Source of the DNA: the human T2T-CHM13v2.0 reference genome, Homo sapiens
Assembly: GCA_009914755.4 (NCBI GenBank)
Contig: CP086569.2
Span: forward strand, 19,520,001 to 19,584,000
Direction: 5' to 3'
Length of the DNA stretch: 64,000 bases
Shown in pieces: positions 8,981-58,843 of the stretch. The stretch's first letter is position 1. Each line of letters begins with the position of its first letter. The notes beneath the pieces were generated by a model that was not told where the DNA came from, did no database searches, and worked only from the letters and a program-made list of their open reading frames with translations. The position numbers and the translations under genes are program-made.

Positions 8981-9567
8981 TGTTGAGACAACCAGCCCCA
9001 CACCACCTAGCACGTACCCTGAGTCTGGTGGAGACAAAGGGTTAGAAAGAGATAGAATCAGTATTTAAAAGGCTGTTCCAGAGGACCAAAGCATCGGAGG
9101 CTTGCTCACCGTTCAGAGTTCCTGGGCTCCACCCAATTTGTTGGTTTACAAGCATTTTGATCTTAGGACAGATGGGAGCAGAAGGAAGGGATGAGGAAAA
9201 GGATTAATCAGTGTAGAGGAACTCGTGAGTCTTTCAATAAGCTACATAGTAGTGGCAGTTTCTGTGAATTTCCTTGAGCCAAAGGCATGTGTCTAAACTA
9301 CTTAAGATCTTTAACTTATCAGAACTGAAATGGGTGAGAGCAGCTTTCAGGAGGAGCCAAGATGTTTGATTATACTCCACCGCTTCAAGGGAGTGTTATC
9401 TCCCTGAGCAACCTGAGGAATGCCGCTGAGTGCTTATGCTCTGGGGGCATAAAGACATGGAGGCAATAAGGAGACTTTTCTCCTCAGCAGCCACCCATGG
9501 CTCCCCATGGATGTCTCACATAGGGGAGAACAACTCAACTGGCACCACAGAAACTCTCCTTTCCACA
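8981..9567 (-). repeat. Provirus 1 3' LTR
   Basis: rc starts TGTGGAAAGGAGAGTTTCTGTGGTGCC and ends ...ggtt..ca. It is homologous to 12820-13423 and to provirus 2 LTRs. The adjacent PPT is gacaaaaaagagagaca (rc of 9568-9584). Confidence 0.85.
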
Positions 9568-11290
9568 TGTCTCTCTTTTTTGTCTTTATTAATTTTTTGA
9601 TTAATAACTGCCATTGCTATCATGGCTGGTGTCTGGCCTCTCACCCAAGGGGCTGTCTGCATCTGTTGACTAAAAACAAATAGCATAAGCAGACACAAAC
9701 CAAAATAAAATTTGCAATTGTTGATCCACCTATGGTTTTAATCTACTTTAAAGGAATGGTATTAGAAAAGCCATCAGTGGCTCCAGCAAGAATATCAGCT
9801 CCAGGCAACAGGATAAGATGAGCCTGAGATGACTCAAAAACTTGTTTTTTCAGTTTGGCAATATCTAGTGTTAAACTATGTTCTTTTCCTTGTGGGTGAT
9901 GTCTAATCATCTCTCAATGATGTTCAGTGACATTATAGGGCTAGGAGAAACACAAAAATCCAAAGTATTCCAATCACATTGCATTTGACTTCTACACTCC
10001 AAGCCAGTAGTCCAATCCCCCATCCAAATTACTGTCTGACAGAGATCATTAATTTGATTTGCCAATTTTTGATCTACTTGGCTTTGGGAATTCCAAAGCT
10101 TAGAAGAATTTTTCTGCCAACTATCCACAAAGCCCGCAGTTTGAATAGAAGAGTGCAAAGCAGCAACAGTGCAGAAGCAGTAGCTGTGACAGCTATAAGG
10201 CCCATGACCACAGCTATTAAAGTAAATATGAATCTCTTTGATCTATTAAATATTCCTTTTAGTACTTCAGTGATAATATGTATGGAGGGAGAGTCCTCCC
10301 AAGGTCTATTGAGGGAAACAAGTATCTGAATTCCTTCTCAGGCCCTAACCAGTAAAAATGCTATTATCTTTATTAAAGGTAGAATTAATGCAGGTAAAAA
10401 GGTGACAGTTAAGGCAGGGTATGGTTTCGGAGTCAGGTAGGAAATTAATTTTCCCGGCTGCCAACATAAAAGGAGGTTTAACAAAACTCTGCAATGGGAC
10501 CGTCTGATTAGAGGTCATGGCTACAGCAAATGAAAGTTTTTTACTATGAGTCTCTGTTTTATATTCTCCTATCCAAATCCAAACTGGGGTTTGAGCCATC
10601 ATTAATTTCCACAGTTCTGGATGTTCTGGTCTCATAACTGGATCGATCATTTTTGGGCTTGGAGGAGCCATACCATTCTCCTCCCACTTAATAGGGTAAT
10701 TTGTTTCAATTCTTCTACATAATTTTGGTGCATTATCTGGGTAGTCATTTGCAGGAGTCCCTCTACAATCTTTGCGCTGGCCAGTAAAATTTACTGCAAA
10801 GTGTCCCCTAGGGACCCAATCAATGGCGATGTTATAGGAATTATTTTACAGTAGCGCAGCACTGTTTGCAATACAATCTTCCCAAGTTAGCACCTCTAAC
10901 TTTTCAGGCCATTTAGTGGCCTGCCTAGGGCAGGGATTCATATTAGGTTTAAATTCAGTAATCTGGCAACGTGTCATAACATAGCCGTGCTCAAGTATTT
11001 AATAGTGTCCAAAGATTAAAATGTTGCTTCATTGATTGCATGAATAGAGGCTTTTGATGCATTTTGTGTAGGGACATTTATGTCCCACTTTATCATAATT
11101 TAAACATCCTGCTGCCAGCCCCAGGCAGATGGGAGGAAAGCGATAATCAATGGAAACATTCACCAACATTCCCGCCTGCTCTAGATGAGTAGGACCTTGC
11201 TTATCTGTTGGTCCATCCACCAGGAGGGTCTAACCACGCAACAGGCCTAATCAGTAGTGGGAATGGAATGTAGACCCAGTAAGTGTAATT
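9516..11290 (-). pseudogene. env: Provirus 1 env remnant: SU N-terminal part, SU C-terminal part, and TM including the fusion-peptide region and membrane anchor
   Basis: ORFs on the minus strand match HERV-K Env, with frameshifts between them. 11029-11220 reads ...[23 protein letters not shown]. 10345-10671 reads ...PEHPELWKLMMAQTP...[43 protein letters not shown]. 9907-10158 reads ...[35 protein letters not shown]...CDWNTLDFC. Confidence 0.85.
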
Positions 11291-12666
11291 TTGATCTGCC
11301 TCTCCCTTACTAAGTCTAATTGCTGCCTGACATTCTGTATTAGCATTTTCATAAGCAAGCAGCTGAATAATCACTTTCCTGGCATGAGAATCTGAAACAG
11401 TCTTTTGAGCCGCGTCTTGGAAACAGGCGATAAAATCTGGATAAGTCTCCCTTGGACACTGTTGAAATGAGTTAAAAGAAGGATAAGTAGTACCAGGGTC
11501 ATGAATGTTTTCCCAGGTTCTTAGGCATAGAGTTCTGAACTGACCAACAGCCTCATCACCCATTACCATGGGTTCATTTACAGTACCCCATGCCTGTCCG
11601 ATTCCAAGCAATTGATCAGATGTGATATCAATGGCAGGTTGAGCTTGAGCATTTCTGTGTGCCGTATTTGTTGCTTCATCCATCCACCAGGGTTTAAATT
11701 GGAGAGATTCCATAGGTTAAATGCCAGTTATAAGCCACAGATTGTAACAAGGAATGAACATAAGGAAAATTTGGCCCCTATTTTCCAATTGCTTGCTTTA
11801 AGTCTTCTAATATTTTAAAAGTAAATGGCTCCCAGAGTGCCTCAGGATGTTCTCCAGGCTCCTCAGCAGGAAAAATAATTACTGGATACGGCCAAGCATC
11901 CAAATCCCCCATTTCTCGTGCCTGGCGAGTAGATGCCTTGATTGTCTCTGTGCCATAATTTGTATTTGGGCTGGATGAAAGCATTCCTTTACCACAATTA
12001 ACAGGTGGACAAGCCTGGATCATTCCCTCACTGTAACTGGCTGTTGGGTTAGCCTGAAGCTTCCTTTTGCCATAGTTAATGGCTGGGTGTGCAACAATGG
12101 GAGCGGCAAGCCAAGTCACAGGCTCCTTTAACAACAATTCATAAGGCTAAGGCGGAGCTGGCCGTTCCAGACGTTCCCATAAAGGCGCAGTAGTTGGCAC
12201 TGTTTCTGCTGTAGGTGGAACTCTTTCTTTCATAAGTTTTTTGGGGGTTAGCATATAGAGCTTCTGGTTTCTTCCCCTTATTTAAAACTAGACTGTGATG
12301 GTTCACTTTGCTGATCGTCAGACTCATGGTTATTAAACTTTTCTATGTCACCCTGAAACTCCTCCTCATCCTCTGGGTGGAAGGGCTCCAGTGCAGTTTT
12401 AATTGCTGACCACACAGACCAAGCAGAGAAGGGAATATCATGGCCCTCTTGCTGTGCTTGTTTTAAGTCTCATCCAACTTTATCCCAATCTTCTACATTC
12501 ATGGTTCCATATTCCAGGAACCAAGGAGAAAACTTTTCTAGGTTATGGAACAAAGAAGTGAGATTTTGGGTACTCACAATTATCCCTCTGAGGCACAATA
12601 ACTGCTGCAGCAGGCTAAATAATTGGCAAACTTACTTTCAGTCTGACCTATATTTTCTTGAGGTTA
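11291..12666 (-). pseudogene. gag: Provirus 1 gag remnant (MA-p15-CA). The start codon has mutated from ATG to ATA
   Basis: Minus ORFs read ...GEHPEALWEPFTFKILEDLKQAIGK and ...FKPWWMDEATNTAHRNAQAQPAIDITSDQLLGIGQAWGTVNEP...PDFIACFQDAAQKTVSDSHARKVIIQLLAYENANTECQAAIRLSKGEADQ. Both match HERV-K Gag. rc at about 12664 reads aaaatATAGGTCAGACTGAAAGTAAGTTTGCCAATTA, against ATGGGTCAGGCTGAGACTAAGTTTGCTAATTA in provirus 2. Confidence 0.85.
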
Positions 12667-12801
12667 CCCTGGAATTCTCTGAGTGCCCTACTTACCCACG
12701 GAGCTTGAAGTGAAAATGTACTCGGGCCTCCTTCATCAGGCGTCCTCCACTTTCCACTCTCTGTCATTTCTTTACCAGATTATTTGTAGAGATTACTTGG
12801 A

Positions 12802-12819
12802 GCACTGTGTTGTGTGCCA
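12802..12819 (-). promoter_or_regulatory. Provirus 1 primer-binding site (tRNA-Lys-like, degenerate)
   Basis: rc TGGCACACAACACAGTGC lies immediately after the 5' LTR end. Compare TGGCACCTAACACGGGGC in provirus 2 and the canonical HERV-K TGGCGCCCAACGTGGGGC. Confidence 0.7.
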
Positions 12820-13423
12820 CATGGGGAAACCATCCCCTCACCACCCAGTGGGTCCCCTGAGTCCCGTGCAGACAAAGGAGTTAGAAAGAGATAGAATCAG
12901 TGTTTAAAAGGTGGGTTAAGGGAACTGCAGTGTCAAAGGCTTGTTCATGGCCCAGAGTTCTTAGGCTCCACCCAATTTGTTGGTTTACAAGCTCTTTGTT
13001 CTTATGTCAGATGGGAGGGGGGAGGAAGGGATGAAGAAAAGGATTAATCAATGAAGGAGAAGTCATGAGTCATTCAATAAGATGTGTAGCAGTGGCAGTT
13101 TCTGTGAATTTTCTTGAGTAAAGGTGTGTGTTTAAACTACTTAAGATATTTAACATATTGGGACTGAAGCAGGTGGGAGCAGGTTTCAGGAGGAGCCAAG
13201 ACGTTTGATTACACTCCACTCTTTCCAGGGAGTGTTATCTCCCCGAGGAACCTGTAGAATGCCACTGAGTGGATATGCTCTCTGAGTGGTTACGCTCTCA
13301 GGGCATAAAGACATGAAGGCAATAAGGAGACTTTTCTCCTCAGAGGCCACTCATGGCTCGCCATGGGTGTCTCACACAGGGGAGACAAACTCAACTGGCA
13401 ACCCAGATACACTTTTTCTCACA
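12820..13423 (-). repeat. Provirus 1 5' LTR
   Basis: rc starts TGTGAGAAAAAGTGTATCTGG. It is about 85-88% identical to 8981-9567 and has a small internal tandem duplication (ctgagtggatatgctctctgagtggttacgctctc). Confidence 0.85.
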
Positions 13424-13474
13424 GAAGACAAACAAAAATGTCACTCTTGTTAACAATAACAAGGTAAAGCTTAC

Positions 13475-13607
13475 ATTTTGACACATTTCTGCCTGAACTT
13501 GCTCTTTTATTTCTCTCTCATATTCATTTAGCTTTATTTCTAAAGACTCACCCTTGATATGCTGAGAGTAAGCATCTGCAAACTGATCATCAATAAGCTG
13601 AAACTTC
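13475..13607 (-). pseudogene. OFD1: OFD1-like exon (pseudogene fragment), homologous to [43 protein letters not shown]
   Basis: The minus translation reads [44 protein letters not shown], followed by GTAAGC. It lies 52 bp upstream, in the gene's own orientation, of the provirus 1 5' LTR. Confidence 0.85.
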
Positions 13608-15654
13608 CCAGGTATTAAAAAATAACATGTCAAAAGAGGACATAGAAGCATGGTCAGGTGTGTAAGAGGCCAGTTTTCTTTTTCAAAGGTAAAGAGTATA
13701 CTTAGGGGAAAGCATGGGTGTCTGCGATTTACTTCAAAATACACAAAAAAAGAAAGATGGATGTGTGGATAAACAGATAAAAGTAATGAAGCATATATAA
13801 TGCCAATGTAATAATGGAATTTAGGTGGGAGGTTTATAAGTGTTTGATAGAATTCTTTCTACTTTTCTATATGTTTCAAAATGTTCATCATAAAATGTTG
13901 GAGGAAATAGAAATTGAAGAGTACAGTTAAAGTCAGAAAATACTGCTGTCTCTTCCTATTAACTAAATGCTAAGGAAGAGAGCTCTTTATCGGACTTTTG
14001 TTAAAATTGACTTCAGATTCAAAACAATAACTGTAAAGGAATCAAAGGTCATGTTACTTCAATGCCTCCACTTTGCAGATAAAGAACACATACCAATATA
14101 GCTGAAAAAGTGATTAAATAACAGCATAGCCAGGACTAAAATGAGACCGACTGACTCTTTCTTCCATTAGTCAAGTGGGCCTCAAACCAACTATGGACTA
14201 AAATCAACCACACAGCAGAGTGCAAATCTGAACCCAGGGTACAATCTTGAGCATGTGTAACACACCAAAAAAGTATGCCCAGTGGGAAAAAGGCTGGCAG
14301 AAGTAGACGATAACATTGATAGTGTTTGTCCCTGGTAGGCATGACTTTAGACATGTTTTTTCATCTACTTTTCTGTATTTTTCAAATGCTGTCCTACACA
14401 AGACCCTCCAGCCACATACAGCCATTGACACTGGAAAGGCGACCAGTCTGAACTGAGATGTGCCTTAAATGTAAAAAACACATGAGATTTCAAAACTTAG
14501 TGCAAAAACAAAGCAAAAAGAAAGTGAAATATCTCATTCATATTTTTATATTGAACACATGTTGAAATCATATTTTGGATGTATTGGATTAAATATATTG
14601 TTAAAGCTAATTTTATCTATTTCTTTTTACTGTTTTCAATGTGGCTACTAGAAAACTGAACATTATGTATGTGGCTCACCTATTGGACAGCACTGCTTGA
14701 TAATTATCAAGTAAAATGTTTCTAATGGAATTAAACCTACACTTAATTAAAGGCATAGTCAGATAATACAAATTTTGAATTTATCTTCTAACATGTTATT
14801 GTTACTATTTAAGAATAAGGAAGGCCCAAAAATCCATTAAGCACATCATTTTAAACAGCTGTCTCCCATCTCTACTGAGTGCAAAACTGAAGGGCAAGAT
14901 GGTATTGTCGACCCGCTGCGTAGTACACAAAATCTAGATCATGGATGGGAGAATTCGGACATCACTAGCTGCTCTGAGGCAGATTGAACGTTTTCAATTT
15001 GCCCTCCCTCTGAGGACCTCGATTTCCTCCACTGTAAATTGAAGCGATGAGCCAATTACTTCTCTAGTTCTCTGCAAAACAAATAGTCCATAATCTTCTA
15101 CCTTGGTTGCTGTAAACTTAAGACAAGACACGAGGAAGGACCTCCCAGTTAAGAGAGGTAAAACTCAACAAACAGGGAAGATTTTGGGCCTTTGAATCCT
15201 TGCATGCTTTGGCCAATGTAGCCCTGGCATGCATGAGGCCAGGAAATGACATTGGAGAGCACTTGCTGGGCCCCCAGGATGATTCCAGAAAAAGTAAATT
15301 CCCCTTTTCCCTGCAGGCTGCATCCCTCTTGTTCAAGAAGCAACCACACAACTTGGTAAATCAGGTAGCTTCCTTCATTCAAAATGGAAACAACAGAATT
15401 GAAATTAAGAAAGAAGACTGTAATTACCTAGAGAATCTCTGATAAATGGCAAAGTTGTCTGTGTTTCCATGTTACAACTCTTTTTAGCTTGATGATATTC
15501 TGCTAATTATTTTAATAAATGCATACAAAAACCTAAAAAAAAATGCATTCAGTTTTTTTTCCTCAGAGCTTTCAGCCACTGCTCAGACACTGTTTACACA
15601 ATCTTCGTTTTATGACAGTATCATTTTATACATCGTGTATGTTTCTTTTTTGTA

Positions 15655-15950
15655 GAGACAGAATCTTGCTCTGTCACAAATGCTGGAGTGCAGCGGTGTA
15701 ATCATGGCTCGCTACAGCCTCGAACTCCTGAGCTCAAGCAGTCCTCGCACTTTAGCCTCCCAAGTAACTGTGACTAGAGGCAACTACCACCACCTGCCAC
15801 GTAAAGCTAATTTTAATTTTTTGTGCAGACAGGGTCTTCCTATGTTGCGCAGGCTGCTCTCAAACCCATGACCTCAAGCGATCCTACTGCCTGGGCCTCG
15901 TAAAGTGCTGAGATCACAAGCATGAGCCACTGTGCCCAGTCACAGCTTCT
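15655..15950 (-). mobile_element. Alu element, antisense (duplicate-copy counterpart of 905-1203)
   Basis: Same Alu at the colinear position. Confidence 0.85.
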
Positions 15951-16091
15951 AAGAATAAATCTGAGGAAAGACCTTTCCAAGCATGCTACAAAATGTGGCA
16001 TAAATAATGATAAATATTTATGAATTTAATGACTTAAAACTTGAAAAATTTACATATGATATAAAATAAACAAAGCACACTGCAATAATAT

Positions 16092-16760
16092 GGAGTCATA
16101 AGTGTATAGGAGTTATTAAGAAATCATTTTAAGCAGATAGAGAAAACCTGGTGTCCTTGGAACGTTTTTGTCTCATTTAAAGCAGCTCCAGAAAAGTTTC
16201 CTGTCTAGCCGGAAAGGCCTGGCTCTTGGAGTCGGGCAGGCAAATTTTGATATGCAAATGTCCGCCGTCAGAAACTGAGTCCACCCAAACATGGCTTCCT
16301 GCTCTCTTCTCCTTGACCTTGCCCCCACAAATGCCTGGCCACATGGCCTCCCCCACATATCCCCAGGTATGCAGAACATCCTGGTACCCTGCATCTGCAT
16401 TCTAAAAGTCTGGGCGGAGCGGGGGGAGGGCCAGTATTTTAGGGGCTACATGAGTGAGGAGACTGGTCAAACCAATCCCCTGAGCCTATAGAAATCAGGC
16501 ACCACCTCCTCCAGCCTCCTTATGCAGCTGGCTGGTTTCTGCCTCACTTAGGCTTTCCTTTCTCGGGTTTGGAGCCCCTCCTTCCCTCTCTCTTTGTACA
16601 GAGAGGCTTCTTCCTTCTTTCTTCTTCCTTCTTTCTGCCTATTAAATGCTCTGCTCCTTAAAACCACTTCACGTGTGTCTGTGTTATTCTACCCAATTAG
16701 CAGGATACAAAAGCCCTAGTGTTTCTCCACTCGTCAGAGCTGAGTCATTTTGGTGCATTG
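16092..16760. repeat. LTR-like repeat of about 630 bp, copy B
   Basis: Homologous to 1340-1972 and 23932-24565. Confidence 0.6.
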
Positions 16761-18020
16761 CATGGGAATCCAAGGTACAGTCTTCCTCAGAGTGGTGAGT
16801 ATGGAAGCAAGCTTAAAACCTGTTCTATCACTCTGAGGTGCAGTTAGCCTCTATATTAAAATAAATCCAATAAATCAATGGAAATCCATCAGCCTAGTAC
16901 CTACTGTTAGCGTTAACTGCCGTAATAAAAACATGGATGTGAGGCTAGCTGGGGAGAACATGGAGAACACCACATTACAAATGGGTATTGAATTTCTGAC
17001 CGGGGCACATGCTGGCATGATTCAGAGGCCAATGACCTGGACGCAGCCTCCGACAGCCCATTTAGGGTGTTTGCAGAGAATCCTTAACTATCCTTTTGCA
17101 AAACTCTTCTTCTCCATCTCCAGCCTCTTAATCCTTCTCTGCATGAAATGGGCAGGGATTGTTACAGTCTAGGAACAGAGTTTTCCCCTTTTCCTCTGTG
17201 GTGAGTTTACTTGTTGCCACTTCTCTGGTGAGCACATAGCATTTCTCAGCCAACACCACCACCTAGTGAAAATGGAAATCCTCTAAGAAGCACACTTTGT
17301 TCCTGTTTTTTTCAGTGCAAGTCCAAAGCTTTCTTTCACACTGTTAGAAATCAGGCTCTAGGCCTCTTCTGAGATCGACAGTTTCTGCCTTTAGCAATTA
17401 GGAGTAAGATGTTTTCTGTAGACAAATTTTAGCCTCCATAGTGTCCCACTGGCAGGAAAATAATCCTCCATTTGGTTCCTATGTTCCTTTAAAGCTTCTA
17501 TTATCTCTCCTATTAAGACGGTATTTAATTAGTAAGAGGACTTTAAGTCCAGAAGTTAATGGGAACCATTTCACTATGGGTACATGCTTTACTACTGGCC
17601 ACAATGGCAGAACATAGAGTTCAATCTAGCAGACACTTCTCTTAAAGGGGTCTTGCCTAATTGCATTGTTTTTCCTGAAATCCATTTTTTAAGAAAGGCA
17701 TGCAGGCAACACAAGTCTAAGAAATAAAAGGAAAATAAAGGAAAGAGGAATAAGACTGCTTGTGGAAGGCAATACCATTACCCAAAAGTTTAGTTTCTCT
17801 GGTAACATGGCTTAAAATGTCATGACTGCAGTCATGGGTGTCACATTTAAATGGGAGCTGAATTTCAGGAGCAAAGAAAAACTACAGTTACAGAACACCC
17901 CCTAATGTACTAATCTCCTTTCGGAATCACATACTGAAAGGAAGGAGAGTAAAAAGGTGCTTTTATTCTTACCTCTCTTTCTAGATTGGTAACAGATAGT
18001 CTTTAACATCCATTCCCTTG

Positions 18021-18130
18021 GAATATATATATATATATATATATATACATATTCGTATATGCATATATGTATATATGTATATATACGTATACACACACAC
18101 ACACACCACACACACACACACACATATGTA
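18021..18130. repeat. Compound microsatellite (TA)n / (CA)n
   Basis: Visible directly. Confidence 0.95.
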
Positions 18131-18159
18131 TATTTATTTATATGCCTGTGTGTGAGACA

Positions 18160-49065: not shown

Positions 49066-49066
49066 T

Positions 49067-49522: not shown

Positions 49523-50485
49523 ATGTTTTTGTTCTTATTTTACTTAGAGTCCTGGGATACATGTGCCGAATGTCCAGTTTTGTTACATAGTAATACCTGT
49601 GCCATGGTGGTTTGCTGCACCTATGAACCCATCATCTATATTTTAATCCCCACATGCATTAGGTATTTATCCTAATGTTCTCCTTTCCCTTGCCTTCCAC
49701 ACCATGACAGGCCTCAGTGTGTGATGCTCCCCTCCCTGTGTCCATACGTTCTTATTGTTCAACTCCCACTTACTGGTGAAAACATAGAGTGTTTGGCTTA
49801 CTGTTTCTGTGGTAGTTTGCTGAGGATTATGGTTTCCATCTTTATCCATGCTCCTGCAAAGGACCTGAACTAATCCTTTTTATTGGTGCCTAGTATTCCA
49901 TGGCATATATGTGTCATGTTTTCTTTATCTAGTCTATCATTGATGGGTATTTGGGTTGATTTCAGTCTTTGTTATTTTAAATACTGCTGCAGAAAGTATC
50001 ATAATGGTGCACAGGCAACCTACAGAAAGGGAGAAAAAATTTGCAATCTATCCATCTGACAAAGGTCAGGATATACAAGGAATCTATCCAGAATCGACAA
50101 GGAACTTAAATTTACAAGGAAAAAGCAAACAGCCCCATCACAAAGTGGGCAAAGGATATGAACAGACACTTCTCAACAAAAGACATTTATGCTGCCAACA
50201 AACACGAGAAGCAGCTCATCATCACTGGCCAATAGAGAAATGCACATCAAAACCACAATGAAATACCATCTTAGCTCAGTTAGAATGGCAACCATTAAAA
50301 AGTCAGAAAACAACAGATGCTGGCAAGGATGTGTAGAAATAGGAAGGCTTTGACACTGTTGATGGCAGTGCAAAGTTTCTCAATCATTGTGGAAGAGAGT
50401 GTGGTGCTTGCTGAAAGATGTAGAACCAGAAATACCATTTGACACAGCAATGTCATTACTGAGTATACGCCCAAAGGATAATAAT
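49523..50485 (-). mobile_element. L1 element on the minus strand with a twin-priming-type 5' inversion. The 3' segment (ORF2 C-terminus, 3' UTR and tail) is sense on the minus strand at 49523-49965. The inverted upstream ORF2 segment is at 49966-50485
   Basis: 49540-49965 reads as L1 antisense (gtcctgggatacatgtgccgaatgtccagttttgttacatag...tctatcattgatgggtatttgggttgatt), the reverse of the L1 3' UTR and ORF2 end. 49966-50485 on the plus strand encodes ORF2 ...KKFAIYPSDKGQDIQGIYPE...[16 protein letters not shown]...[35 protein letters not shown]. Those are the residues immediately upstream of the region covered by the other segment, with about 60 bp missing at the junction. Confidence 0.8.
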
Positions 50486-52937
50486 TGACTTTTCAAACAG
50501 CAAACATGGAAGAAACAAGGTCAAGCTGTCTGTGAACCTTGGGATATAGGTATATTAAAATATTTCAATAGACATTTAAATAAATCCATGGTGTCAGGTC
50601 CTGGTAAATCATATATTTTGGATGAACAAATGGGATTGCCTAACTTTGGGTCAGTGCTGTTTTAAAAATTGCAAGAAAACTGCCATATTATCTGCTAGGT
50701 TGAAAGCATTTCCTATTTTCAGAAAGAGGAAAAAACGCACATCTCCTTGGCTACAACAGGGTACAATCAGAGTGACCCAAAACAACAAGAGAAACATGTA
50801 TTAAATGCCTCTTTTCAGTCATATCCCATGCACTTTTATTATACACTGACTAATTTAATGTGAATCCTAAGATAAGAACAGATTATTATTCTTTCACATA
50901 CTCCTGGTTATACTGAGAACAAGAACAAGTCATGCCAAACTTACCGCTTGTTTTTTCTTTCTTTTCTTTTTTCTTTCTTTCTTTTTTTTTTTTTTTTGAA
51001 GGGAGGTGTTGTAGGTAAACTGAAAAACCGAAATTCATTTTAAGAAATAGTTAGGTATCCTCCTATGGACAAACAGGAGACCTGGAGCCTCAGTGAAAAT
51101 TCAAAATATTGCTAGCATGATGTCTTCTGTTAGAGCAGATAAACCATTGGTGTCATTCACTGTGGTATCTCTACAGCTATAAGACTGACAGAAACTGAAA
51201 AATTACTCATAATTGCTGAATGAGTAATTGCTCATAGCTGACTTCAGGGTCAATACTCAGAGAACATTGGGTGTTCCATGTCACTGTATGGCACAGAGTT
51301 CCTAGGAAGGCTTTGAGGTTGAGCTTAACCCAATCTAGATCGCATTTAAATTAACTTGAAAGAAGACAAATTACAATATTCAAAGATAATACCAAGGGCT
51401 GCTAATTTATTAGAAGGCAGAAATTGGATTCAAAGTGATCTCCATGGCACAGAGACTTAGGTGACTCTAACAAGATTGAAGTTAGGAGAATAAGAAATGA
51501 AACCCTGGGCTTAAAATCAACCTTTCAACAATAGGACAAAGGAAACCTAGATTAGATACAGTTTATCTGTATCAACACAAAAGTGTGAACTTAATGCAAG
51601 CTCAGTAGAGCTAAAAGTCTGGTAGGTTTTTCAAGTAAGCTAATGCAATTCTGTTTGGTTTTAAGAGGAAAATCAAGGAGAATGGTGATTTTCTTTTTGA
51701 GGAGATCAATAAGTCTTTCCTGTGTGTGTTAAAGGGAAGAGGTGGGCAGCACTGAGGCTAGGGAATGCTATGCAAAAAAGACAAGAGCAACTGAAGGGAC
51801 TGAGGGTGTTTAAGTGTTTTTTGGGGACCTTTTTGTGGTGGAAAGGGAGTAGGGTACAGCACAGTACTTTCATTAAATACAATAAGCTGTCTAATGGGAA
51901 AAAAAAGAGAGAGATTTAGCTCAGGATGACAAATAAATTTCCTTCATGAGTGAATCCTAATCAACTGGTAGTGACTGCCAGGAACTGGTGCTCAGAAAGA
52001 TTCCAAAACTAAGTGGGATTGGTAGGAAAAAATGCTGTGATCAATTATCTATGTCTGCTATGAATCTGGGGAAGTGTAGTGCCTACATGAGGGCCAAGTA
52101 TTTGCTGACACTGAAGTAGAGAGACTTGTTCCAAACTGTTACATAGGTTAAGCCAAGGGCTGCTCATGTGGACTCACTGAAAACTATAATCTAAGGGGTG
52201 GCTGGAACACCACCAGTGCCAGAGTGAGGGGATGCTGAATGACCATGGAAGTCACTGTTATTATTTTAAGTTTCAGGTAAATGCACAATAAAACTCATGG
52301 ATTCCAGTGCCAAAGACATCCCTTTTTTGTAACAAGCCTCTTTGCAGCCTCTATAGGAGAGATTCTAGAAAAACTGCCCGGTGCTCCTGACAGCAGTAGT
52401 TTCAGTCGTTCCATAGACCTGGTTTCATGAGTCTAAACATGGTATAGCATGGGACACGTCTATTGCAAGGAGGAGGGGCAGGTTGACCTCTATTGATAGG
52501 TCTCTAATGCAACATTTTCCTATTAATATTATAAGCAATTCTCCCATTTTTAGAAGTTGTGCTAGTGTTTAGACAAAACTTTCTCTAATTATATTTCTGT
52601 ATTCAACTGTGGGATACAAAGTGTGGGGGAGGACAGGAGTGAGAGGGTTTTCAGTCACAGATTTATTTTTTGTTTTTAAATGGTGGACTGTTGATTCTAT
52701 CTAACACATTTACAACCTATAAACCTATTTTTAGAACACTGTTTTCATCATTTCATCATTCCACTCAAAAATATGGATGTGTGTCAGGTACAGGATCATG
52801 TATTGGTATTCAAAATGGACTCCCAAATTGAAAACACATTTTTTTCTTCAGCCCTATTATTCCATCTCTGCTAGAGTTGAGTTGTTTACTTATATTTTCC
52901 CCCAAGTTTATGTTAGTTGTATCCACTTCAGGGCTAC

Positions 52938-53521
52938 TGTGGGAAAGAGAGTTTCTGGTATGCCAGATAAGTTAGTCTCCCCTGTGTGAGATGCCCATAG
53001 GGAGCCATGGGTGACCTCTGAGGAGAAAAGTCTCCTTATTGCCTTCACGTCTTTATGTCCCAAGACCATAACAGTTCAGCGGCATGCCACAGGTTGCTTG
53101 GGGAACTAATACTCCCTTGAACAGTGGAGTACAGTCAAACATCTTGGCTTCTCCTGAAAACCACTCCCACCCATTTCAGATCTTCAGTTAAAGATCTTAA
53201 GTAGTTTAGAAACACACCTTTGCTCAAGGAAATTCACAGAAACTACCAGTGCTATACATCTTATTGGATGACTCACACATTCTCCTTCACCAATCAATCC
53301 TTTTCCTCATGTCTTCCTACCCCTCGCATCTTTCCTAAGAACAAAGAACTTGTAAACAAATAAGTTGGGAGGAGGCCGAGAGCTTGAGGTCACGAGCAAG
53401 CCTCCCAGGCTCCAGTCCCATCGATCCACCTTTTAAGCTATGATTCTGTCTCTTTCTAATTCCTTTGTCTCCTCTAGACTCAGGATATTTGCCAGATGGT
53501 GTGGGGATGGTTTCCCTATCA
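52938..53521 (+). repeat. Provirus 2 5' LTR
   Basis: TGTGGGAAAGAGAGTTTCTGG...GGTTTCCCTATCA. Homologous to 58257-58843. Confidence 0.9.
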
Positions 53522-53523
53522 TC

Positions 53524-53541
53524 TGGCACCTAACACGGGGC
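53524..53541 (+). promoter_or_regulatory. Primer-binding site (tRNA-Lys-type, degenerate)
   Basis: TGGCACCTAACACGGGGC lies 2 nt after the LTR end. The canonical HERV-K PBS is TGGCGCCCAACGTGGGGC. Confidence 0.75.
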
Positions 53542-53690
53542 TCCCTCTAATCTCTACAAATAATCCAGTGAAGGAATGCCAGAATGTGGAAAGTGGAGGA
53601 GACTGACAAAGGAAGCCTGAGTACATTTTCACTTCAAGCTCTACAGGTAAGGAGGGAGCCCAGAGAAATCCAGAGTAACCTCAGGAAAAT

Positions 53691-55310
53691 GTGGGTCAGG
53701 CTGAGACTAAGTTTGCTAATTACTTAAGCCCAGTACGGCAGTTATTGCACTATGGAGGGTTAATTGTGAGTACCCGAAATCTCATGTCTTTGTTCCATCT
53801 CATAGAAAAGTGTTCTCCTTGGTTCCCAGAATATGGAACCATGAATGTAAAAGATTCAGACAAGGTTGGATCAGACTTGAGCACAACTAGAGGGCCATGA
53901 TATTCCCTTCCCCACTTGATCTGTGTGGTCAACAATTAAAACAGCACTGGAGCCTTTCCACACTGAGGAGCAGGAGAAGTTTCAGGATGACATAGGAAAG
54001 TTTAATAATCAGGAGTCTGATGATCAGCAAGTTGAACCATCACAGTCCAGTTTTAAAAAGGGGGATAAAAGGGAAGGTATATATGCTAACCTCCAAAAAC
54101 TTATGAAAGAAACTGTTCCACCTAATGCAGAAACAGGGACACCTACTGCACCTTTAGGGTAAGTTTGGAATGGCCACGCCCACCTCAGCCTTCTGAATGT
54201 TTGGAACAGGACCCTGAGCCGTGGCTTGCCACTCCCATTGTTGCACGCCCCACCATTAACTATGGCGAAGGGAAATTCAGGCTCGCCCAACAGCCAATTA
54301 CAGTGAGGGAGTGATCCAGGTTGGTCTGTCTGTTAATTATGGTAGAGGAATGCTGCCTGCCAGCCCAAATACAAATTATGGCATAGGGATGATCCAGGCA
54401 TCCATTTGCCAGGCATGAGAAATGGAGGATTTGGATGCATGGCAGTTTCCGGTAATTATTTTGCCAGCTGAGGAGCCCAGAGAACATGCTGAAGCACGCT
54501 GAGAGCCATTTCCTTTTAAAATATTGAAAGACTTAAAGTAAGCAATTGGACAATATGGGCCAGATTCTCCTCATGTTCATTCCTTGTTAAAATCTGTGGC
54601 TTATAACCGGTGTTTAATACCTATGGATTGGGAATCATTAGCCCAGTTCACCCTGTCCTTGTCTGAATTTCTCCAATTTAAAACTTGGTGGACTGGTGAA
54701 GAAACAAATCAGGCATGCAGAAATGCTCAACACCAACCTCCCGTTAATATCACATCTGATCAATTGCTTGGAATTGGAGAGACATGGGGAACTATAAATC
54801 AACAGATGGTAATGGGTCGATGAGGCTGTTGATCAGCTCAGAACTATATCCCTAAGAGCCTGGAAAAAAAATTCATGATCCTGGTACCACTTATCCTTCT
54901 TTTAACTCAGTTTGACAGGGTCCAAGGCAGTCTTATCCAGATATTATCTCCCATTTGCAAGATACTGCTCAAAAGGGTATTTCAGATTCTCATGGCAGGA
55001 AACTGCTCGTTCAGCTGCTTGCTTATGAAAATGCTAATACAGAATGTCAGGCAGCACTTAGATCTATTAAGGGAAAGGCAGATCTAAATGAGGAAATATC
55101 TGCAAATGAATGCATTAAAGCCTGTGATGGCATTGGGGGGCACTTACATAAGGCAAGCCTCCTTGTCCAGACAATTGCTGGGCTAAGAGTAACAAAAAAC
55201 ACACAAATGTTCCCTGGATCTTGGTATAATTTTGGACAGATAGGCCTATACAAAAAGAGAGTGTACAAAGAGCCAAATAAGACAAAACTCAGTACCAGGC
55301 CCTGATTCAA
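53691..55310 (+). pseudogene. gag: Provirus 2 gag (MA-p15-CA-NC), disrupted by frameshifts and stops
   Basis: It begins MGQAETKFANYLSPVRQLLHYGGLIVSTRNLMSLFHLIEKCSPWFPEYGT. The HERV-K Gag equivalent is MGQTKSKIKSKYASYLSFIKILLKRGGVKVSTKNLIKLFQIIEQFCPWFPEQGT. Later frames read ...FKTWWTGEETNQACRNAQHQPPVNITSDQLLGIGETWGTINQQ and ...DTAQKGISDSHGRKLLVQLLAYENANTECQAALRSIKGKADL...IKACDGIGGHLHKASLLVQTIAG. A degenerate zinc knuckle WYNFGQIGLYKK follows. Confidence 0.9.
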
Positions 55311-55399
55311 AATGGGGCATTCCCAATTTAGAATGGGACATCCCCAACTCCAAATGGAGTGTTCCCAGCCCAGTCTATCCCTGTACAAATGTATAGCAA

Positions 55400-56235
55400 T
55401 TGTCCCCCTCCACAGCTAAAAGTGGGGCAGTAGATTTATGCTGTACAAAAGCTGTATCCCTCCTTCCTGGGGAGCCTCCTAGGAAGGTCCCAATGGGAGA
55501 TTACAGTCCATTGCCAAACGGCACGGTGGGACTTATACAGGGAAGGTCCAGCTTAAAACTAAAGGGAATTCAAGTACATACTGAAGTAGTGGACTCTGAT
55601 TGCCAGGGAGAAATTCAAATAGTTATCTCCCCCACTGTTCCCTGGAGTGCTAATCCAGGTGACAGAATAGCTCAACTGTTGCTTTTACTGTATGTTAAGC
55701 TAGGAGAAAGCTCAGAAAAAAGAACAGGAGGATTTGGAAGCACAAATACAGCAGGCAAGGCTGCCTATTGGGTAAATCAAGTCTCTGACAACAGACCTAT
55801 TTTTACGGTCACTATGCAAGGAAAACAATTTGAGGGTCTGGCTGACACAGGAGCAGATGTGTCGATAATAGTTCTTTATCAATGGGTGAAAACTGGCTCA
55901 AACAAAAGGCCCCAGTGGATCTTGTTGGGGTCAGGACTGCTTCAGAAGTTTTCCAGAGTACTATTATGGTACCATGTCTTGGTCCAGAAGAACAGGAAGG
56001 CACAATACAACCTCTAATTATACACACTCCTGTTAACTTATTGGGGAGAGGTCTGCTTCAACAATGGGGCACAGAAATTTCAATCCCTCCTCAACGGTAT
56101 GGTCAAGCTAGTCAAAAAATAATGTCAAACATGGGCTATGTTCACATAAAAGGCCTAGAAAAGGAGAAGGGCATTACTGAATCCATACACGTTACTGTAA
56201 AAAGTGACCGAAAAGGATTAGGTTACCATTTTTAG
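55400..56235 (+). pseudogene. pro: Provirus 2 pro region: dUTPase-like domain, aspartic protease (DTGAD) and a C-terminal G-patch, with a frameshift
   Basis: The 205-aa ORF reads ...GTVGLIQGRSSLKLKGIQVHTEVVDSDCQGEIQIVISPTVPWSANPGDRIAQLLLL...TVTMQGKQFEGLADTGADVSIIV. The overlapping frame reads ...[39 protein letters not shown], which is G-patch-like. Confidence 0.85.
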
Positions 56236-56269
56236 GGGCAGTCACTGTTGAGCCTCCAAGCCCTATTCC

Positions 56270-57140
56270 CTTAAAATGGAAGGCCCAAATTCCTGTTTGG
56301 GTCAAACAGCGCCTGTTTTTTCAGGAATAAAATGGGGACCATACAGGAATTAGTCAAAGAGCAATTAAACAAAGGAAATATTGAGCCCACATTTTCTCCA
56401 CGTAATTTGCCAGTGTTTGTAATAAAGAAAAAATCCGGCAGATGGCGCATGCTAACCGACTTATGAGCAGTCAGTGCAGTCATCCAGCCAATGAGGGTCC
56501 TGAAGCCAGGGCTTCCATCCCCAACCATGATTCCTAGAGTGTCTGTTAATAATTACAGATTTGAAGGATTGCTTTTTAAATATTCCTCTAGTGGAGTCTG
56601 ATTTTGAGAAATTTGCTTTTACTACTCATGCTATGAACAACAGGAACCAGCGGCCAGATATCATTGGAAAGTCCTGTCACAGGATATGTTGAATAGTCCT
56701 ATTATTGGTAAAATTTCTGTGAGGGAGGCTATTCAGCCTGTGAGAGATCAGTTTCCAGGTTCGTATATCATTTATTGTACAGATGATATACTGTGTGCGG
56801 CCGAAAATCGAGACCGACTTATCCATTGTTATTTATATATACAGGAGGTGATATATACAGGAGGTGGTAACCAATGCTGGATTGCTCATAGCACCAGATA
56901 AAATTCAAATGACTACTCCTTTCCAATATTTGGGAATGCAGGTTCAGGAAAGGGCAATTAAACCCCAAAAGGTTCAATTTTGAAAAGACTCTCTGGAAAC
57001 TTTAAATGATTTTCAAGAAGTATTAGGGGATGTCAATTGGATTCTACCTACTTTGGGAATCCCTACCTATACTCTGTCTAATCTGTTCTCTATTTTAAGA
57101 GGAGACCCTGCTCTCAATAGTAAATGAGAACTGACTCCTG
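56270..57140 (+). pseudogene. pol: Provirus 2 pol remnant (reverse-transcriptase fingers, palm and thumb only). RNase H and integrase are deleted
   Basis: The frame reads ...[49 protein letters not shown], matching HERV-K [51 protein letters not shown]. The YIDD motif has mutated to CTDD. Downstream reads ...[81 protein letters not shown]. Confidence 0.85.
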
Positions 57141-57149
57141 AGGCTGACA

Positions 57150-58239
57150 AAGATGATCGATCCAATTATAAGTCCAGAACACCCAGAATTGTGGAAATTA
57201 ATGATGGCTCAAACCCCATTTCGGGTTTGGAAAGGATAATATAAAACAGACCCATAGTACAAAATTTTGATTTGTTGCAGCCATGACCTGTAATCGGATG
57301 GTCCCACTGCAGAGTTGTGTTAAATCTTTTATATTGGAAGTGAGAAAAATTAATATCCTACCTGACTCTCAAACCATATCATGCCTTAACTGTCACCTTT
57401 TTACCTGCATTATTTCTACCTTTAATAAAGATAACAGCATTTTTACTGGTTAGGGCCCAAGAAGGAGTTTGGATACTTGTTTCCCTCAATAGACCTTGGA
57501 AGGCCTCTCCCTCCATACATATTACCACCATTTAGTAGAAGTACTAAAAAGAATACTTAATAGATCAAGCAGATTCATATTTACTTTAATAGCTGTGCTC
57601 ATGGGCCTTACAGTTGTCACAGCTACTGCTGCTGTTGCTGCTGGTGTTGCCTCCCAGACTTCTATTCCACCTGCGGGCTTTCTGGCAGAAAAATACTTCT
57701 TAGCTTTGGAATTCCCAAAGCCAAATACATCAAAAATTGGCAAATTAAGTTAATAATCTCCATCAAACAGTAATTTGGATGGGACATCAGATTATGAGTT
57801 TGGAGCACAGAATTCAAATGCAATGTGAATGGAATATTTCTGATTTTTTTTATTACTCCTGGCTCTTATAATGCCACCGAACACCACTGGGACTTGATTA
57901 TATGTCACCTACAAGGAAAAGAAGATAATTTAACATTAGATATTGCTAAACTGAAAAAAAAAAAACCCAAAAACTATTTGAGGCATCTCAGGCTCATCTC
58001 AGCCTGTTGCCTGGAGCTGATATTCTTGCTGGAGACGTTGATGGCCTTTCTAATATCAACCACTTAAGGTGGATTAAAATCATAGGTGGATCAATAGTTG
58101 CAAATTTTATTTTGGTTTGTGTCTGTTTATGCTGTTTGTTTTTAGTTTACAGATGTAGATGGCACCTTGGGAGAGAAGCCAGACACTGTGAACTAGCTAT
58201 GATAGCAATGGTGGTTATTAATAAAAAAAAAATTAATAG
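57150..58239 (+). pseudogene. env: Provirus 2 env remnant (SU C-terminal part plus TM), with frameshifts
   Basis: ...MIDPIISPEHPELWKLMMAQTP...; ...[26 protein letters not shown] (fusion-peptide region); ...[35 protein letters not shown]...; ...IKIIGGSIVANFILVCVCLCCLFLVYRCRW (membrane anchor). Confidence 0.85.
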
Positions 58240-58256
58240 AGACCAAAAGGGGGACA
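58240..58256 (+). promoter_or_regulatory. Polypurine tract
   Basis: agaccaaaagggggaca lies immediately 5' of the 3' LTR start TGTGGG. Confidence 0.75.
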
Positions 58257-58843
58257 TGTGGGAAAGAGAGTTTCTGGGATGCCAGATGAGCTGGTCTCCC
58301 CTATGTGAGACACCCATGGGGAGCCATGGACAGCCTCTGAGGAGAAAAGTCTCCTTATTGCCTTCATGTCCTTATGCCCCCTGAGCACAACAGCTCAGCA
58401 GCATGCCACAAGTTGCTTGGGGAAATAACACTCCCTTGAAGCAGTGGAGTATAATCAGAGATCTTGGCTTCTCCTGAAACCCACTCCCACCCATTTCAGT
58501 CCCAACAAGTTAAAGATCTTAAGTAGTTTAGACACATGCCTTTGCTCAAGGAAATTCACAGAATCCACCACTGCTATACATATTATTGAATGACTCACAA
58601 CTTCTCCTTCACTGATTAATACTTTCCCTCATGCTTCCTATGCCTCCCATCTGCCCTAAGAACAAAGAACTTGCAAACCAATAAATTAGGTTGAGATCGA
58701 GAGCTCAGGGCTGTGAGCAAGCCTCCAATGGCTCTGGTCCCCTGGACCTGCCTTTTAAACTCTTATTTTGTCTCTTTCTAATTCCTTTGTCTCCGCTGAA
58801 CTCGGGATAGCCTCCGGGTGAGGTGGGGCTGGTTTCTCCAACA
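58257..58843 (+). repeat. Provirus 2 3' LTR
   Basis: TGTGGGAAAGAGAGTTTCTGGGATGCC...GGTTTCTCCAACA. Confidence 0.9.

What the first reader, a model, noticed from the sequence alone, without database searches (positions are those of the whole stretch)
8981..58843. Two same-family HERV-K-like proviruses in inverted orientation 39.5 kb apart, each with different internal deletions
Provirus 1 (minus) and provirus 2 (plus) share homologous LTRs of about 590 bp, beginning TGTGGGAAAGAGAG, and both have a Lys-type PBS. Their gag and env segments are homologous. For example, the env fusion-region artefact ORF 9979-10329 (+) mirrors 57522-57743 (-). Provirus 1 kept gag and env but lost pro and pol. Provirus 2 kept gag, pro and part of RT but lost RNase H, IN and the SU N-terminus. 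Each has its own TSD, gaaggc/gaagac for provirus 1 and GCTAC/GCTAC for provirus 2, so these are independent integrations and not a duplicated copy. Intra-element LTR divergence is roughly 11-14% for both, so both are old, probably inserted before the catarrhine split. A betaretrovirus with a dUTPase in pro, a G-patch and a Lys PBS fits an HML-type family. The LTR length suggests a non-HML-2 group, but I cannot name the subfamily from memory. Inverted homologous proviruses are substrates for inversion by non-allelic recombination. That matters because an OFD1 fragment in this window is inverted.
Basis: partly seen in the sequence, partly recalled or inferred. Interest (0 to 1): 0.6.

Follow-up and report, generated by a model that had tools for sequence, protein, structure and literature searches.

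The report
Two decayed HML-9 proviruses, human Y
These are two ordinary, long-dead endogenous retrovirus copies of the known HERV-K(HML-9)/HERVK14C family on the human Y chromosome; they inserted independently, and nothing shows that they rearranged the DNA between them.

Summary
P1 (8981-13423, minus) and P2 (52938-58843, plus) are LTR-flanked betaretroviral proviruses in inverted orientation, 39,514 bp apart.

- **Family.** Both align end to end with a published full-length HML-9 provirus at 84-88% identity. All four LTRs align over their full length to an LTR14C consensus (587 bp).
- **Location.** 3,549 nt of P1 match the published HML-9 element chrY:18622534-18626952 with no mismatch. The window is therefore GRCh38 chrY:18,613,546-18,677,545. 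P2 is missing from that census.
- **Deletions.** P1 lacks reference positions ~2158-6217 (NC, pro, pol, start of env). P2 lacks 2360-2493 and 4336-6889 (RNase H, IN, N-terminal SU).
- **Independent insertion.** Each has its own target-site duplication and non-homologous flanks. Each element's two LTRs share more derived changes with each other than with the other element's LTRs.
- **Correction.** LTR-LTR divergence is 17-18%, not 11-14%.
- **Inversion idea not supported.** TSD pairs and LTR pairs are intact, and OFD1-like exons are collinear across P1. The window carries DYS385, which marks the arm-spacer boundary of Y palindrome P4 near 27.0 kb. P1 and the "inverted" OFD1 exons lie in the palindrome arm and P2 lies in the spacer, so the palindrome explains the inverted orientation.

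Already known; low interest.

The parts
8975..8980 (.). P1 target-site duplication, copy next to the 3' LTR (GAAGGC on the plus strand)
   Evidence: Read directly from the sequence. It matches 13424-13429 at 5 of 6 positions.
8981..9567 (-). P1 3' LTR (587 bp, LTR14C type)
   Evidence: Aligns over 586 of 587 positions to an LTR14C consensus, p=0.104. It is 84.9% identical to the 16p12.3 LTR.
9568..11287 (-). P1 env remnant. It corresponds to reference 6233-~7985: most of SU plus TM, with about 80 N-terminal codons lost. The polypurine tract lies at its 3' end.
   Evidence: 87.3% identical to HML-9 16p12.3 positions 6218-8562. Pfam hits: HERV-K_env_2 at 11226-10765 (E=1.3e-28) and GP41 at 10164-9934. 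Many stops and frameshifts.
11288..11302 (-). P1 deletion junction. It joins reference ~2157 (end of the capsid C-terminal domain) to reference ~6218 (env) through a 15-nt microhomology, GAGGCAGATCAAAAT.
   Evidence: The two BLAST segments overlap here, and junction and reference were compared side by side.
11303..12801 (-). P1 leader and gag remnant (matrix p10 and capsid p24; no NC)
   Evidence: Pfam hits: Gag_p10 at 12622-12386, Gag_p24 at 11834-11495, Gag_p24_C at 11491-11303. 84% identical to reference 1-2157.
12802..12819 (-). P1 primer binding site, decayed (TGGCACACAACACAGTGC)
   Evidence: Lies 2 nt after the LTR. It matches the tRNA-Lys(CUU) PBS at 12/18 positions; the 16p12.3 reference matches at 17/18. 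The tRNA-complement sequence was recalled from memory.
12822..13423 (-). P1 5' LTR (602 bp, LTR14C type with a small insertion)
   Evidence: p=0.116 to the LTR14C consensus. It is the sister of the P1 3' LTR in the NJ tree.
13424..13429 (.). P1 target-site duplication, copy next to the 5' LTR (GAAGAC on the plus strand)
   Evidence: Read directly from the sequence.
52933..52937 (.). P2 target-site duplication (GCTAC), 5' copy
   Evidence: Read directly from the sequence.
52938..53521 (+). P2 5' LTR (584 bp, LTR14C type; the most diverged of the four LTRs)
   Evidence: p=0.146 to the LTR14C consensus. It shares 17 derived states with the P2 3' LTR.
53524..53541 (+). P2 primer binding site, decayed (TGGCACCTAACACGGGGC)
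   Evidence: Matches the tRNA-Lys(CUU) PBS at 14/18 positions.
53691..55350 (+). P2 gag. It carries a 134-bp deletion in the nucleocapsid region, with the junction at 55292-55298.
   Evidence: Pfam hits to Gag_p10, Gag_p24 (E=5.9e-27) and Gag_p24_C. BLAST aligns it to reference 1-2359 and then 2494 onward. The sense ORF starting MGQAETKF begins at 53691.
55397..56226 (+). P2 pro: dUTPase, retroviral aspartyl protease and G-patch
   Evidence: Pfam hits: dUTPase E=8.7e-15, RVP E=1.8e-8, G-patch E=9e-7. The longest sense ORF, 205 aa, is 55400-56017.
56540..57151 (+). P2 reverse transcriptase remnant (palm and thumb)
   Evidence: Pfam hits to RVT_1 and RVT_thumb (E=6.6e-24). 88.2% identical to reference 2494-4335.
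57148..57153 (+). P2 large deletion junction. It joins reference 4335 to reference 6890; RNase H, integrase and the N-terminal ~300 codons of env are lost.
   Evidence: Overlapping BLAST segments and side-by-side comparison with the reference.
57154..58256 (+). P2 env remnant (C-terminal SU and TM), ending with the polypurine tract
   Evidence: 85.9% identical to reference 6890-8571. Weak GP41 hit at 57686-58135.
58257..58843 (+). P2 3' LTR (587 bp, LTR14C type)
   Evidence: p=0.101 to the LTR14C consensus. Its ends, TGTGGGAAAGAGAGTTTCTGGGATGCCAG and GGGGCTGGTTTCTCCAACA, match published LTR14C solo LTRs.
58844..58848 (.). P2 target-site duplication (GCTAC), 3' copy
   Evidence: Read directly from the sequence.

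Best explanation
P1 and P2 are two separate germ-line integrations of the HERV-K(HML-9) betaretrovirus (Repbase/Dfam HERVK14C-int flanked by LTR14C) into the human Y chromosome at Yq11.222.

Each integration made its own short target-site duplication and two initially identical LTRs. This part is shown. Each copy then lost a different internal block: gag-NC through the start of env in P1, and part of NC plus RNase H, IN and N-terminal SU in P2. The junctions show 5-15 nt of microhomology. The deletions arose either by template switching during reverse transcription or by later microhomology-mediated deletion; which one cannot be decided here. Both copies are riddled with stops and frameshifts and are CpG-depleted, so they are non-coding relics.

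Their inverted arrangement was not produced by recombination between them, and it has not led to any. P1 lies 43 bp downstream of an OFD1-like exon, inside an OFD1 pseudogene intron, in the proximal arm of Y palindrome P4. P2 lies in the P4 spacer, about 1.8 kb upstream of OFD1-like exons 2-3.

Inferred: when the palindrome formed, an arm copy of the 3' part of the OFD1 pseudogene, with P1 inside it, was placed in the opposite orientation. If so, P1 should have a near-identical mirror copy in the distal arm, outside this window. Relative to that copy, P2 is in direct orientation.
For: Family:
- P1 aligns to the published full-length HML-9 provirus 16p12.3 over reference 1-2157 and 6218-8572 at 84-87% identity. 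P2 aligns over 1-2359, 2494-4335 and 6890-8571 at 85-88% (reference sequence).
- All four LTRs align over 584-586 of 587 positions to a consensus built from 11 published autosomal LTR14C copies.
- Pfam shows the betaretroviral domain set, including dUTPase and G-patch.

Identity and location:
- Window 8989-12537 equals the published record chrY_18622534_18626952 at 3549 of 3549 positions.
- That record is provirus no. 14 in Jia et al. 2022 (PMC9178832): gag 75%, pro 0, pol 0, env 85%, LTR divergence 0.194.

Independence:
- P1-P2 homology stops exactly at the LTR termini.
- The TSDs differ between elements and match within each element.
- The deletions differ.
- The P2 LTRs share 17 derived states and the P1 LTRs share 8, against 2-5 for any cross pair. 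A cross-pair grouping appears in 2% of bootstraps.

Context:
- tblastn with OFD1 gives collinear minus-strand exon-like hits at 15533-15426, 13606-13466 and 8649-8518 around P1, and plus-strand hits at 60686-60787 and 61839-62012.
- The (CTTT)n array at 26151-26377 is flanked by exact DYS385 primer sites 397 bp apart.
- PMC4233959 places the DYS385 arrays 650 bp from the P4 arm-spacer boundaries.
Against: - No Dfam/RepeatMasker run and no reference sequences of the sister groups (HML-1 with LTR14A/B, HML-10 with LTR14) were available. Exclusion of those groups rests on the high identity to HML-9 and on P1 being in the published HML-9 list.
- P2 is not in that list.
- The distal arm of P4 is outside the window and could not be fetched, so the mirror copy of P1 and the continuity of the OFD1 pseudogene are inferred. 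The published census lists only one copy at this locus. If the census is complete, P1 is arm-specific or not in the arm. The census also omits P2, so it is not complete.
- Bootstrap support for each LTR pair alone is modest (0.38 and 0.41).
- The OFD1 protein and the DYS385 primers were recalled from memory. The significant or exact matches make a recall error unlikely, but no tool returned the names.
Confidence: 0.92

Rival explanations
1. The two proviruses recombined with each other (non-allelic homologous recombination between inverted repeats). This inverted the 39.5-kb segment between them and explains the oppositely oriented OFD1 fragments.
For: The proviruses are in inverted orientation and share about 3.8 kb of homology. 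OFD1-like exons occur on both strands of the window. Soon after insertion the copies would have been far more alike than they are now.
Against: - A single exchange would give each present element one flank and one LTR from each parent. Instead the TSDs pair within each element: 5 of 6 for P1 and 5 of 5 for P2. The swapped pairings give 1/6 and 4/6.
- Each element's LTRs share private derived states (17 and 8) more than any cross pair does (2-5).
- Exon-like pieces for OFD1 residues 175-221 and 234-277 flank P1 on the same strand.
- Undoing the supposed inversion would place exons 6-7 upstream of exons 2-3 and would not restore gene order.
- Present identity is 80-82%, and the longest identical run is 47 nt.
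- The palindrome P4 arm/spacer layout explains the orientation.
Confidence: 0.02
2. P1 and P2 are two copies of one insertion, made by an inverted segmental or palindromic duplication of a single provirus and then eroded differently.
For: Many HML-9 copies on the Y are reported to have arisen in pairs by duplication (Sin et al. 2010, as cited in PMC11209481). P1-P2 divergence (about 0.21-0.25 K2P in the LTRs) is close to the within-element LTR divergence.
Against: - Homology ends exactly at the LTR termini on all four sides.
- The TSDs differ between the elements.
- In a duplicated provirus the 5' LTRs would group together and the 3' LTRs would group together. Here each element's own LTRs group together, and P2 clusters with a different autosomal LTR14C (chr2:135.5 Mb) than P1 does (chr8 and 16p12.3).
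Confidence: 0.02
3. The elements belong to a different HERV-K group, such as HML-1 (HERVK14 with LTR14A/B), HML-10 (LTR14) or HML-2, rather than HML-9.
For: Sister-group references were not available for a direct contest. P2 is absent from the HML-9 census. The PBS is too decayed to type reliably.
Against: - Identity to an HML-9 provirus is 84-88% over every retained segment, including pro-RT at 88%. P2 scores as high as P1 or higher, and P1 is a listed HML-9 member.
- LTR length and both termini match LTR14C.
- HML-2 LTRs are nearly 1 kb long (established knowledge).
Confidence: 0.04

Closest known systems
HERV-K(HML-9), also called HERVK14C-int with LTR14C (HERV-K14CI of Flockerzi et al. 2005); census in Jia et al. 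2022, PMC9178832
   Same: LTR length (587 bp) and termini, PBS position, the gag-pro(dUTPase, G-patch)-pol-env order, and 84-88% nucleotide identity. P1 is literally entry no. 14 (Yq11.222, chrY:18622534-18626952). Enrichment of the family on the Y, and inflated LTR divergence of Y copies, are both already reported.
   Different: P2 (about chrY:18,666,483-18,672,388) is not in that census. Its deletion pattern (pro complete, pol about 35%, env about 55%, 134-bp NC deletion) is not shared by any listed copy.
HERV-K(HML-2), LTR5-HERVK
   Same: Betaretroviral layout, dUTPase in pro, G-patch, tRNA-Lys PBS, and 5-6 bp TSDs.
   Different: HML-2 LTRs are about 970 bp long and unrelated in sequence at this level. 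HML-2 is much younger and has human-specific and polymorphic copies. The elements here are 17-18% LTR-diverged relics.
HERV15 proviruses flanking AZFa on Yq11.21, the textbook case of provirus-mediated NAHR on the Y (from established knowledge)
   Same: Two homologous proviruses tens to hundreds of kb apart on the Y that could act as recombination substrates.
   Different: The AZFa proviruses are in direct orientation, about 10 kb long and about 94% identical with long identical blocks, and they cause recurrent deletions and duplications. P1 and P2 are inverted, 80-82% identical over about 3.8 kb, with at most 47 identical bases in a row, and show no sign of exchange.
Human Y palindrome P4 (HSFY palindrome; arms about 190 kb, spacer about 40 kb)
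   Same: The window carries one DYS385 copy, which lies 650 bp from a P4 arm-spacer boundary (PMC4233959). This places P1 in the arm and P2 in the spacer. Arm-to-arm recombination is the known driver of inversions in Y palindromes (PMC13252187).
   Different: The proviruses are passengers. They are not the palindrome arms and they do not lie at its boundaries: P1 is about 13.6 kb and P2 about 25.9 kb from the proximal boundary.

Membership tests
HERV-K(HML-9) / HERVK14C-LTR14C | Both LTRs align along their whole length to LTR14C (587 bp) | tested here: met
   584-586 of 587 consensus positions are aligned for all four LTRs, with p-distance 0.10-0.15. The consensus was built from 9 published solo LTRs plus the 2 LTRs of 16p12.3. 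The termini match.
HERV-K(HML-9) / HERVK14C-LTR14C | The internal sequence is collinear with an HERVK14C provirus | tested here: met
   every retained segment of P1 and P2 aligns in order to the 8572-bp 16p12.3 HML-9 provirus at 84-88% identity. Nothing else in the window matches it.
HERV-K(HML-9) / HERVK14C-LTR14C | Betaretroviral gene set with dUTPase and G-patch in pro | tested here: met
   Gag_p10, Gag_p24, Gag_p24_C, dUTPase, RVP, G-patch, RVT_1, RVT_thumb, HERV-K_env_2 and GP41 across the two copies. P2 holds pro; P1 has lost it.
HERV-K(HML-9) / HERVK14C-LTR14C | PBS complementary to tRNA-Lys, 2 nt after the 5' LTR | tested here: inconclusive
   the position is right, but matches are only 12/18 (P1) and 14/18 (P2), against 17/18 in 16p12.3. 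Jia et al. also typed only 2 of 11 HML-9 PBSs as Lys. The tRNA sequence was recalled from memory.
HERV-K(HML-9) / HERVK14C-LTR14C | Closer to HML-9 than to the sister groups HML-1 and HML-10 | not testable with these tools
   No Dfam/Repbase consensus or sister-group sequences could be obtained. Indirect support: P1 is a listed HML-9 locus, and P2 is at least as similar to the HML-9 reference as P1 is.
Independent retroviral integration (as opposed to a duplicated copy) | Own TSD, unrelated flanks, and own-LTR pairing | tested here: met
   See the TSD entries under parts. Shared derived LTR states are 17 and 8 within elements, against 2-5 across elements.
Inversion by NAHR between the two proviruses | Chimeric elements: swapped TSD halves and swapped LTR partners | tested here: not met
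   TSDs and LTRs pair within each element. OFD1-like exons are collinear across P1.
Y palindrome P4 (context) | [quoted passage not shown] | tested here: met
   the (CTTT)n array at 26151-26377 lies between exact DYS385 primer sites (primers from memory). The boundary distance comes from PMC4233959.
Y palindrome P4 (context) | A near-identical inverted second arm carrying a mirror copy of P1 | not testable with these tools
   The distal arm would start at about window 66,400, beyond the window. Look-ups for arm sequence elsewhere found nothing.

The most novel reading that the evidence does not exclude
P2, a 5.9-kb HML-9 provirus in the P4 spacer with a complete pro gene and a unique deletion pattern, is missing from the published HML-9 census. 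So is the expected distal-arm twin of P1. The Y-linked HML-9 count would then be understated. Originally the two proviruses sat in direct orientation within one Y-linked OFD1 pseudogene, whose body is cut by the P4 arm-spacer boundary. Formation of the palindrome then made the inverted copy seen here.
Probability: 0.55. Interest if true: 0.15.

Novelty: already known. Interest (0 to 1): 0.12.

Why it matters
It matters little. The elements are standard repeat annotation on the human Y, and one of them is already catalogued by coordinate.

- The useful outcomes are corrections. The family name is HML-9/LTR14C. LTR divergence is 17-18%. The inverted OFD1 fragment and the inverted provirus orientation are best explained by palindrome P4, not by provirus-mediated inversion.
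- The roughly two-fold higher divergence of these Y copies from the family consensus, compared with autosomal copies, illustrates again that LTR-clock ages are inflated on the Y.
- A minor practical point is that the 2022 HML-9 census omits P2.

Tried and rejected
1. Passing raw DNA references with stops to Pfam failed.
2. The first string searches for P1 in the paper's dataset failed because the file stores minus-strand loci in genomic orientation. Reading the record directly solved it.
3. I tried to get an independent name for the OFD1-like exons. Pfam found nothing. The 5.8-billion-protein search returned only unnamed short ORFs. The PDB search returned only chance hits.
4. Flockerzi et al. 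2005 (PMC548434) is not held. Statements from it are marked as memory or as cited by PMC11209481.
5. I tried to fetch the distal P4 arm. Two exact-protein look-ups and one metagenome scan found nothing.
6. I considered whether the 39.5-kb spacing has anything to do with the roughly 39.4-kb P4 spacer. P1 is 13.6 kb outside the spacer and P2 is 25.9 kb inside it, so the similarity is a coincidence.
7. I considered a duplicated single insertion and a P1 x P2 inversion, and rejected both (see the rival explanations).

Full report
**What is there**

A self-comparison of the window shows two blocks of inverted homology at E=0. These are 8979-10655 with 58845-57148 (82%) and 11288-13427 with 55089-52934 (80%). 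It also shows two pairs of about 590-bp direct repeats, 8990-9557 with 12828-13413 and 52938-53514 with 58257-58836.

Reading the ends gives P1 = 8981-13423 on the minus strand and P2 = 52938-58843 on the plus strand, 39,514 bp apart. Each has TG...CA termini. P1 is flanked by GAAGGC and GAAGAC (5 of 6 identical). P2 is flanked by GCTAC and GCTAC. P1-P2 homology stops exactly at the LTR termini on all four sides, so the flanks are unrelated.

**Gene content**

Six-frame translations were scanned against Pfam.
- P1 has Gag_p10, Gag_p24 and Gag_p24_C, followed directly by HERV-K_env_2 and GP41.
- P2 has Gag_p10, Gag_p24, Gag_p24_C, dUTPase, RVP, G-patch, RVT_1 and RVT_thumb, followed directly by GP41.

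No reading frame is intact. The longest stop-free sense stretches are 171 and 206 codons, and CpG observed/expected is about 0.2. They lie opposite the env TM region and are by-products, not genes.

**Family**

The HML-9 census of Jia et al. 2022 (PMC9178832) describes the reference LTR14C-HERVK14C-LTR14C with 587-bp LTRs. It lists a Yq11.222 provirus at chrY:18622534-18626952 (minus strand, 4419 bp; gag 75%, pro 0, pol 0, env 85%; LTR divergence 0.194). I read that record from the paper's Dataset S1. The part shown, 3549 nt, is identical to window 8989-12537 with no mismatch. The window is therefore GRCh38 chrY:18,613,546-18,677,545 on the plus strand, and P1 is that catalogued element.

I then took the full-length 16p12.3 HML-9 provirus (8572 bp) from the same dataset and aligned both elements to it.
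- P1 covers reference 1-2157 and 6218-8572 at 84-87% identity.
- P2 covers reference 1-2359, 2494-4335 and 6890-8571 at 85-88% identity.
- Nothing else in the window matches the reference.

A consensus built from nine published LTR14C solo LTRs plus the two 16p12.3 LTRs is 587 bp long. All four window LTRs align to 584-586 of its positions, with p-distances of 0.10-0.15. Both elements are HML-9. Sister-group references could not be obtained, so that contest was not run directly. P2 maps to about chrY:18,666,483-18,672,388 and is absent from the census tables and dataset.

**Deletions**

- The P1 junction (window 11288-11302) joins the end of the capsid C-terminal domain to env through a 15-nt microhomology, GAGGCAGATCAAAAT. 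NC, pro, pol and about 80 env codons are lost.
- P2 has a 134-bp deletion in NC (junction 55292-55298).
- P2 also has a 2.55-kb deletion (junction 57148-57153) that starts right after the RT thumb and ends about 300 codons into env.

Whether these arose before or after integration cannot be told from two copies.

**Independence and age**

Within-element LTR divergence is p=0.177 (K2P 0.205) for P1 and p=0.168 (K2P 0.194) for P2. Cross-element LTR distances are K2P 0.21-0.25.

Relative to the LTR14C consensus, the P2 LTRs share 17 derived states and the P1 LTRs share 8, while cross pairs share only 2-5. In an NJ tree each element's LTRs group together and P1 and P2 attach to different autosomal LTR14C copies. 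A cross-pair grouping appears in 2% of bootstraps. Together with the different TSDs and flanks, this shows two integrations from slightly different source viruses.

The Y copies are about twice as far from the family consensus (10-15%) as the autosomal copies (4-7%). The autosomal-rate age of 48.5 My given for P1 in the census is therefore probably inflated. As I recall it, Flockerzi et al. 2005 made the same point for Y-linked HERV-K14CI copies, but that paper is not held. PMC11209481 cites it for entry of the family after the Old World/New World monkey split, about 39 Mya. Insertion before the catarrhine split is plausible, but I could not test it.

**The PBS**

An 18-mer starts 2 nt after each 5' LTR. 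It matches the tRNA-Lys(CUU) complement at 17/18 positions in 16p12.3, 14/18 in P2 and 12/18 in P1. The tRNA sequence was recalled from memory. The PBS is Lys-type at family level and decayed in these copies.

**Surroundings and the inversion idea**

tblastn with the OFD1 protein, recalled from memory, gives six significant exon-like hits.
- Minus strand: residues 138-173 at 15533-15426, residues 175-221 at 13606-13466, and residues 234-277 at 8649-8518.
- Minus strand, duplicate: residues 129-173 at 834-649.
- Plus strand: residues 5-38 at 60686-60787 and residues 38-95 at 61839-62012.

P1 therefore sits in an OFD1-pseudogene intron, 43 bp after one exon-like piece and 332 bp before the next, on the same strand as the pseudogene. 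There is no rearrangement breakpoint at P1.

A crossover between P1 and P2 would have swapped TSD halves and LTR partners. Neither is seen. Reversing the interval would not restore OFD1 exon order either. Present identity is 80-82%, with at most 47 identical bases in a row, which makes these poor recombination substrates today.

**Palindrome P4**

A better explanation for the opposite orientations came from the microsatellite scan. A (CTTT)n array at 26151-26377 lies between exact matches to the two DYS385 primers, 397 bp apart (primers recalled from memory). [quoted passage not shown] The GRCh38 coordinates put this array on the proximal side.

The boundary is therefore near window 27,030. 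Window 1-27,030 is the inner end of the proximal arm, and the rest of the window is spacer. P1 and the minus-strand OFD1 exons are arm sequence. P2 and the plus-strand exons 2-3 are spacer sequence.

By inference, the distal arm carries a mirror copy of P1 and of exons 6-8 on the plus strand, collinear with the spacer exons. On this reading the "inverted OFD1 fragment" is simply the other arm's copy. The distal arm is beyond the window and I could not fetch it, so this step is inferred. It is a concern that the census lists no twin, but the census also omits P2. Inversions in Y palindromes are known to arise through the near-identical arms (PMC13252187), not through diverged dispersed repeats.

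**Verdict**

The classification is sharpened to HML-9/LTR14C. Independent integration is confirmed. The divergence figure is corrected. The proposed link to an inversion is not supported. The feature is already known and ordinary.

Noticed in passing
window 1-7109 and 14766-22203: A large direct duplication (K2P 0.138-0.165) brackets P1. Each copy holds an OFD1 exon-6-like piece (834-649 and 15533-15426, minus strand). The alignment starts at window base 1, so the duplication probably continues beyond the left edge. It is somewhat less diverged than the P1 LTR pair, so a P1 paralogue or an empty site may lie about 14.8 kb proximal, outside the window.
   Followed up: partly
window 26021-26417: The forensic Y-STR DYS385 is here: a (CTTT)n array at 26151-26377 between exact primer sites. 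It marks the P4 proximal arm-spacer boundary near 27,030. A TA-rich microsatellite block at 27216-27699 lies just inside the spacer.
   Followed up: yes
window 8518-8649, 13466-13606, 15426-15533 (minus); 60686-60787, 61839-62012 (plus): OFD1-pseudogene exon-like pieces lie on both strands. P1 is inside the intron between the pieces for residues 175-221 and 234-277, in the same orientation as the pseudogene. P2 is about 1.8 kb upstream of the exon-2-like piece, also in the same orientation.
   Followed up: partly
window 59729-60247: A GC-rich stretch with 141- and 172-codon ORFs on both strands lies just upstream of the OFD1 exon-2-like piece. It may be the decayed CpG-island promoter of the pseudogene. 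This was not tested.
   Followed up: no
window 52938-58843 (about chrY:18,666,483-18,672,388): P2 is absent from the 23-provirus HML-9 census and dataset of Jia et al. 2022, although it is longer than most listed Y copies. The census also lists no distal-arm twin for P1.
   Followed up: yes
window 7109-7264 and 8623-8772: A small extra copy (85% identical) of the intron / exon-8-like start sits exactly at the edge of the left duplication unit. This hints at a complex tandem rearrangement of the OFD1 pseudogene.
   Followed up: no
window 33824-34658 and 49527-50484: Another dispersed repeat pair: direct 33824-34170 with 50140-50484 (80%), next to inverted 34214-34658 with 49987-49527 (74%). It is unrelated to HML-9 and was not identified.
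   Followed up: no
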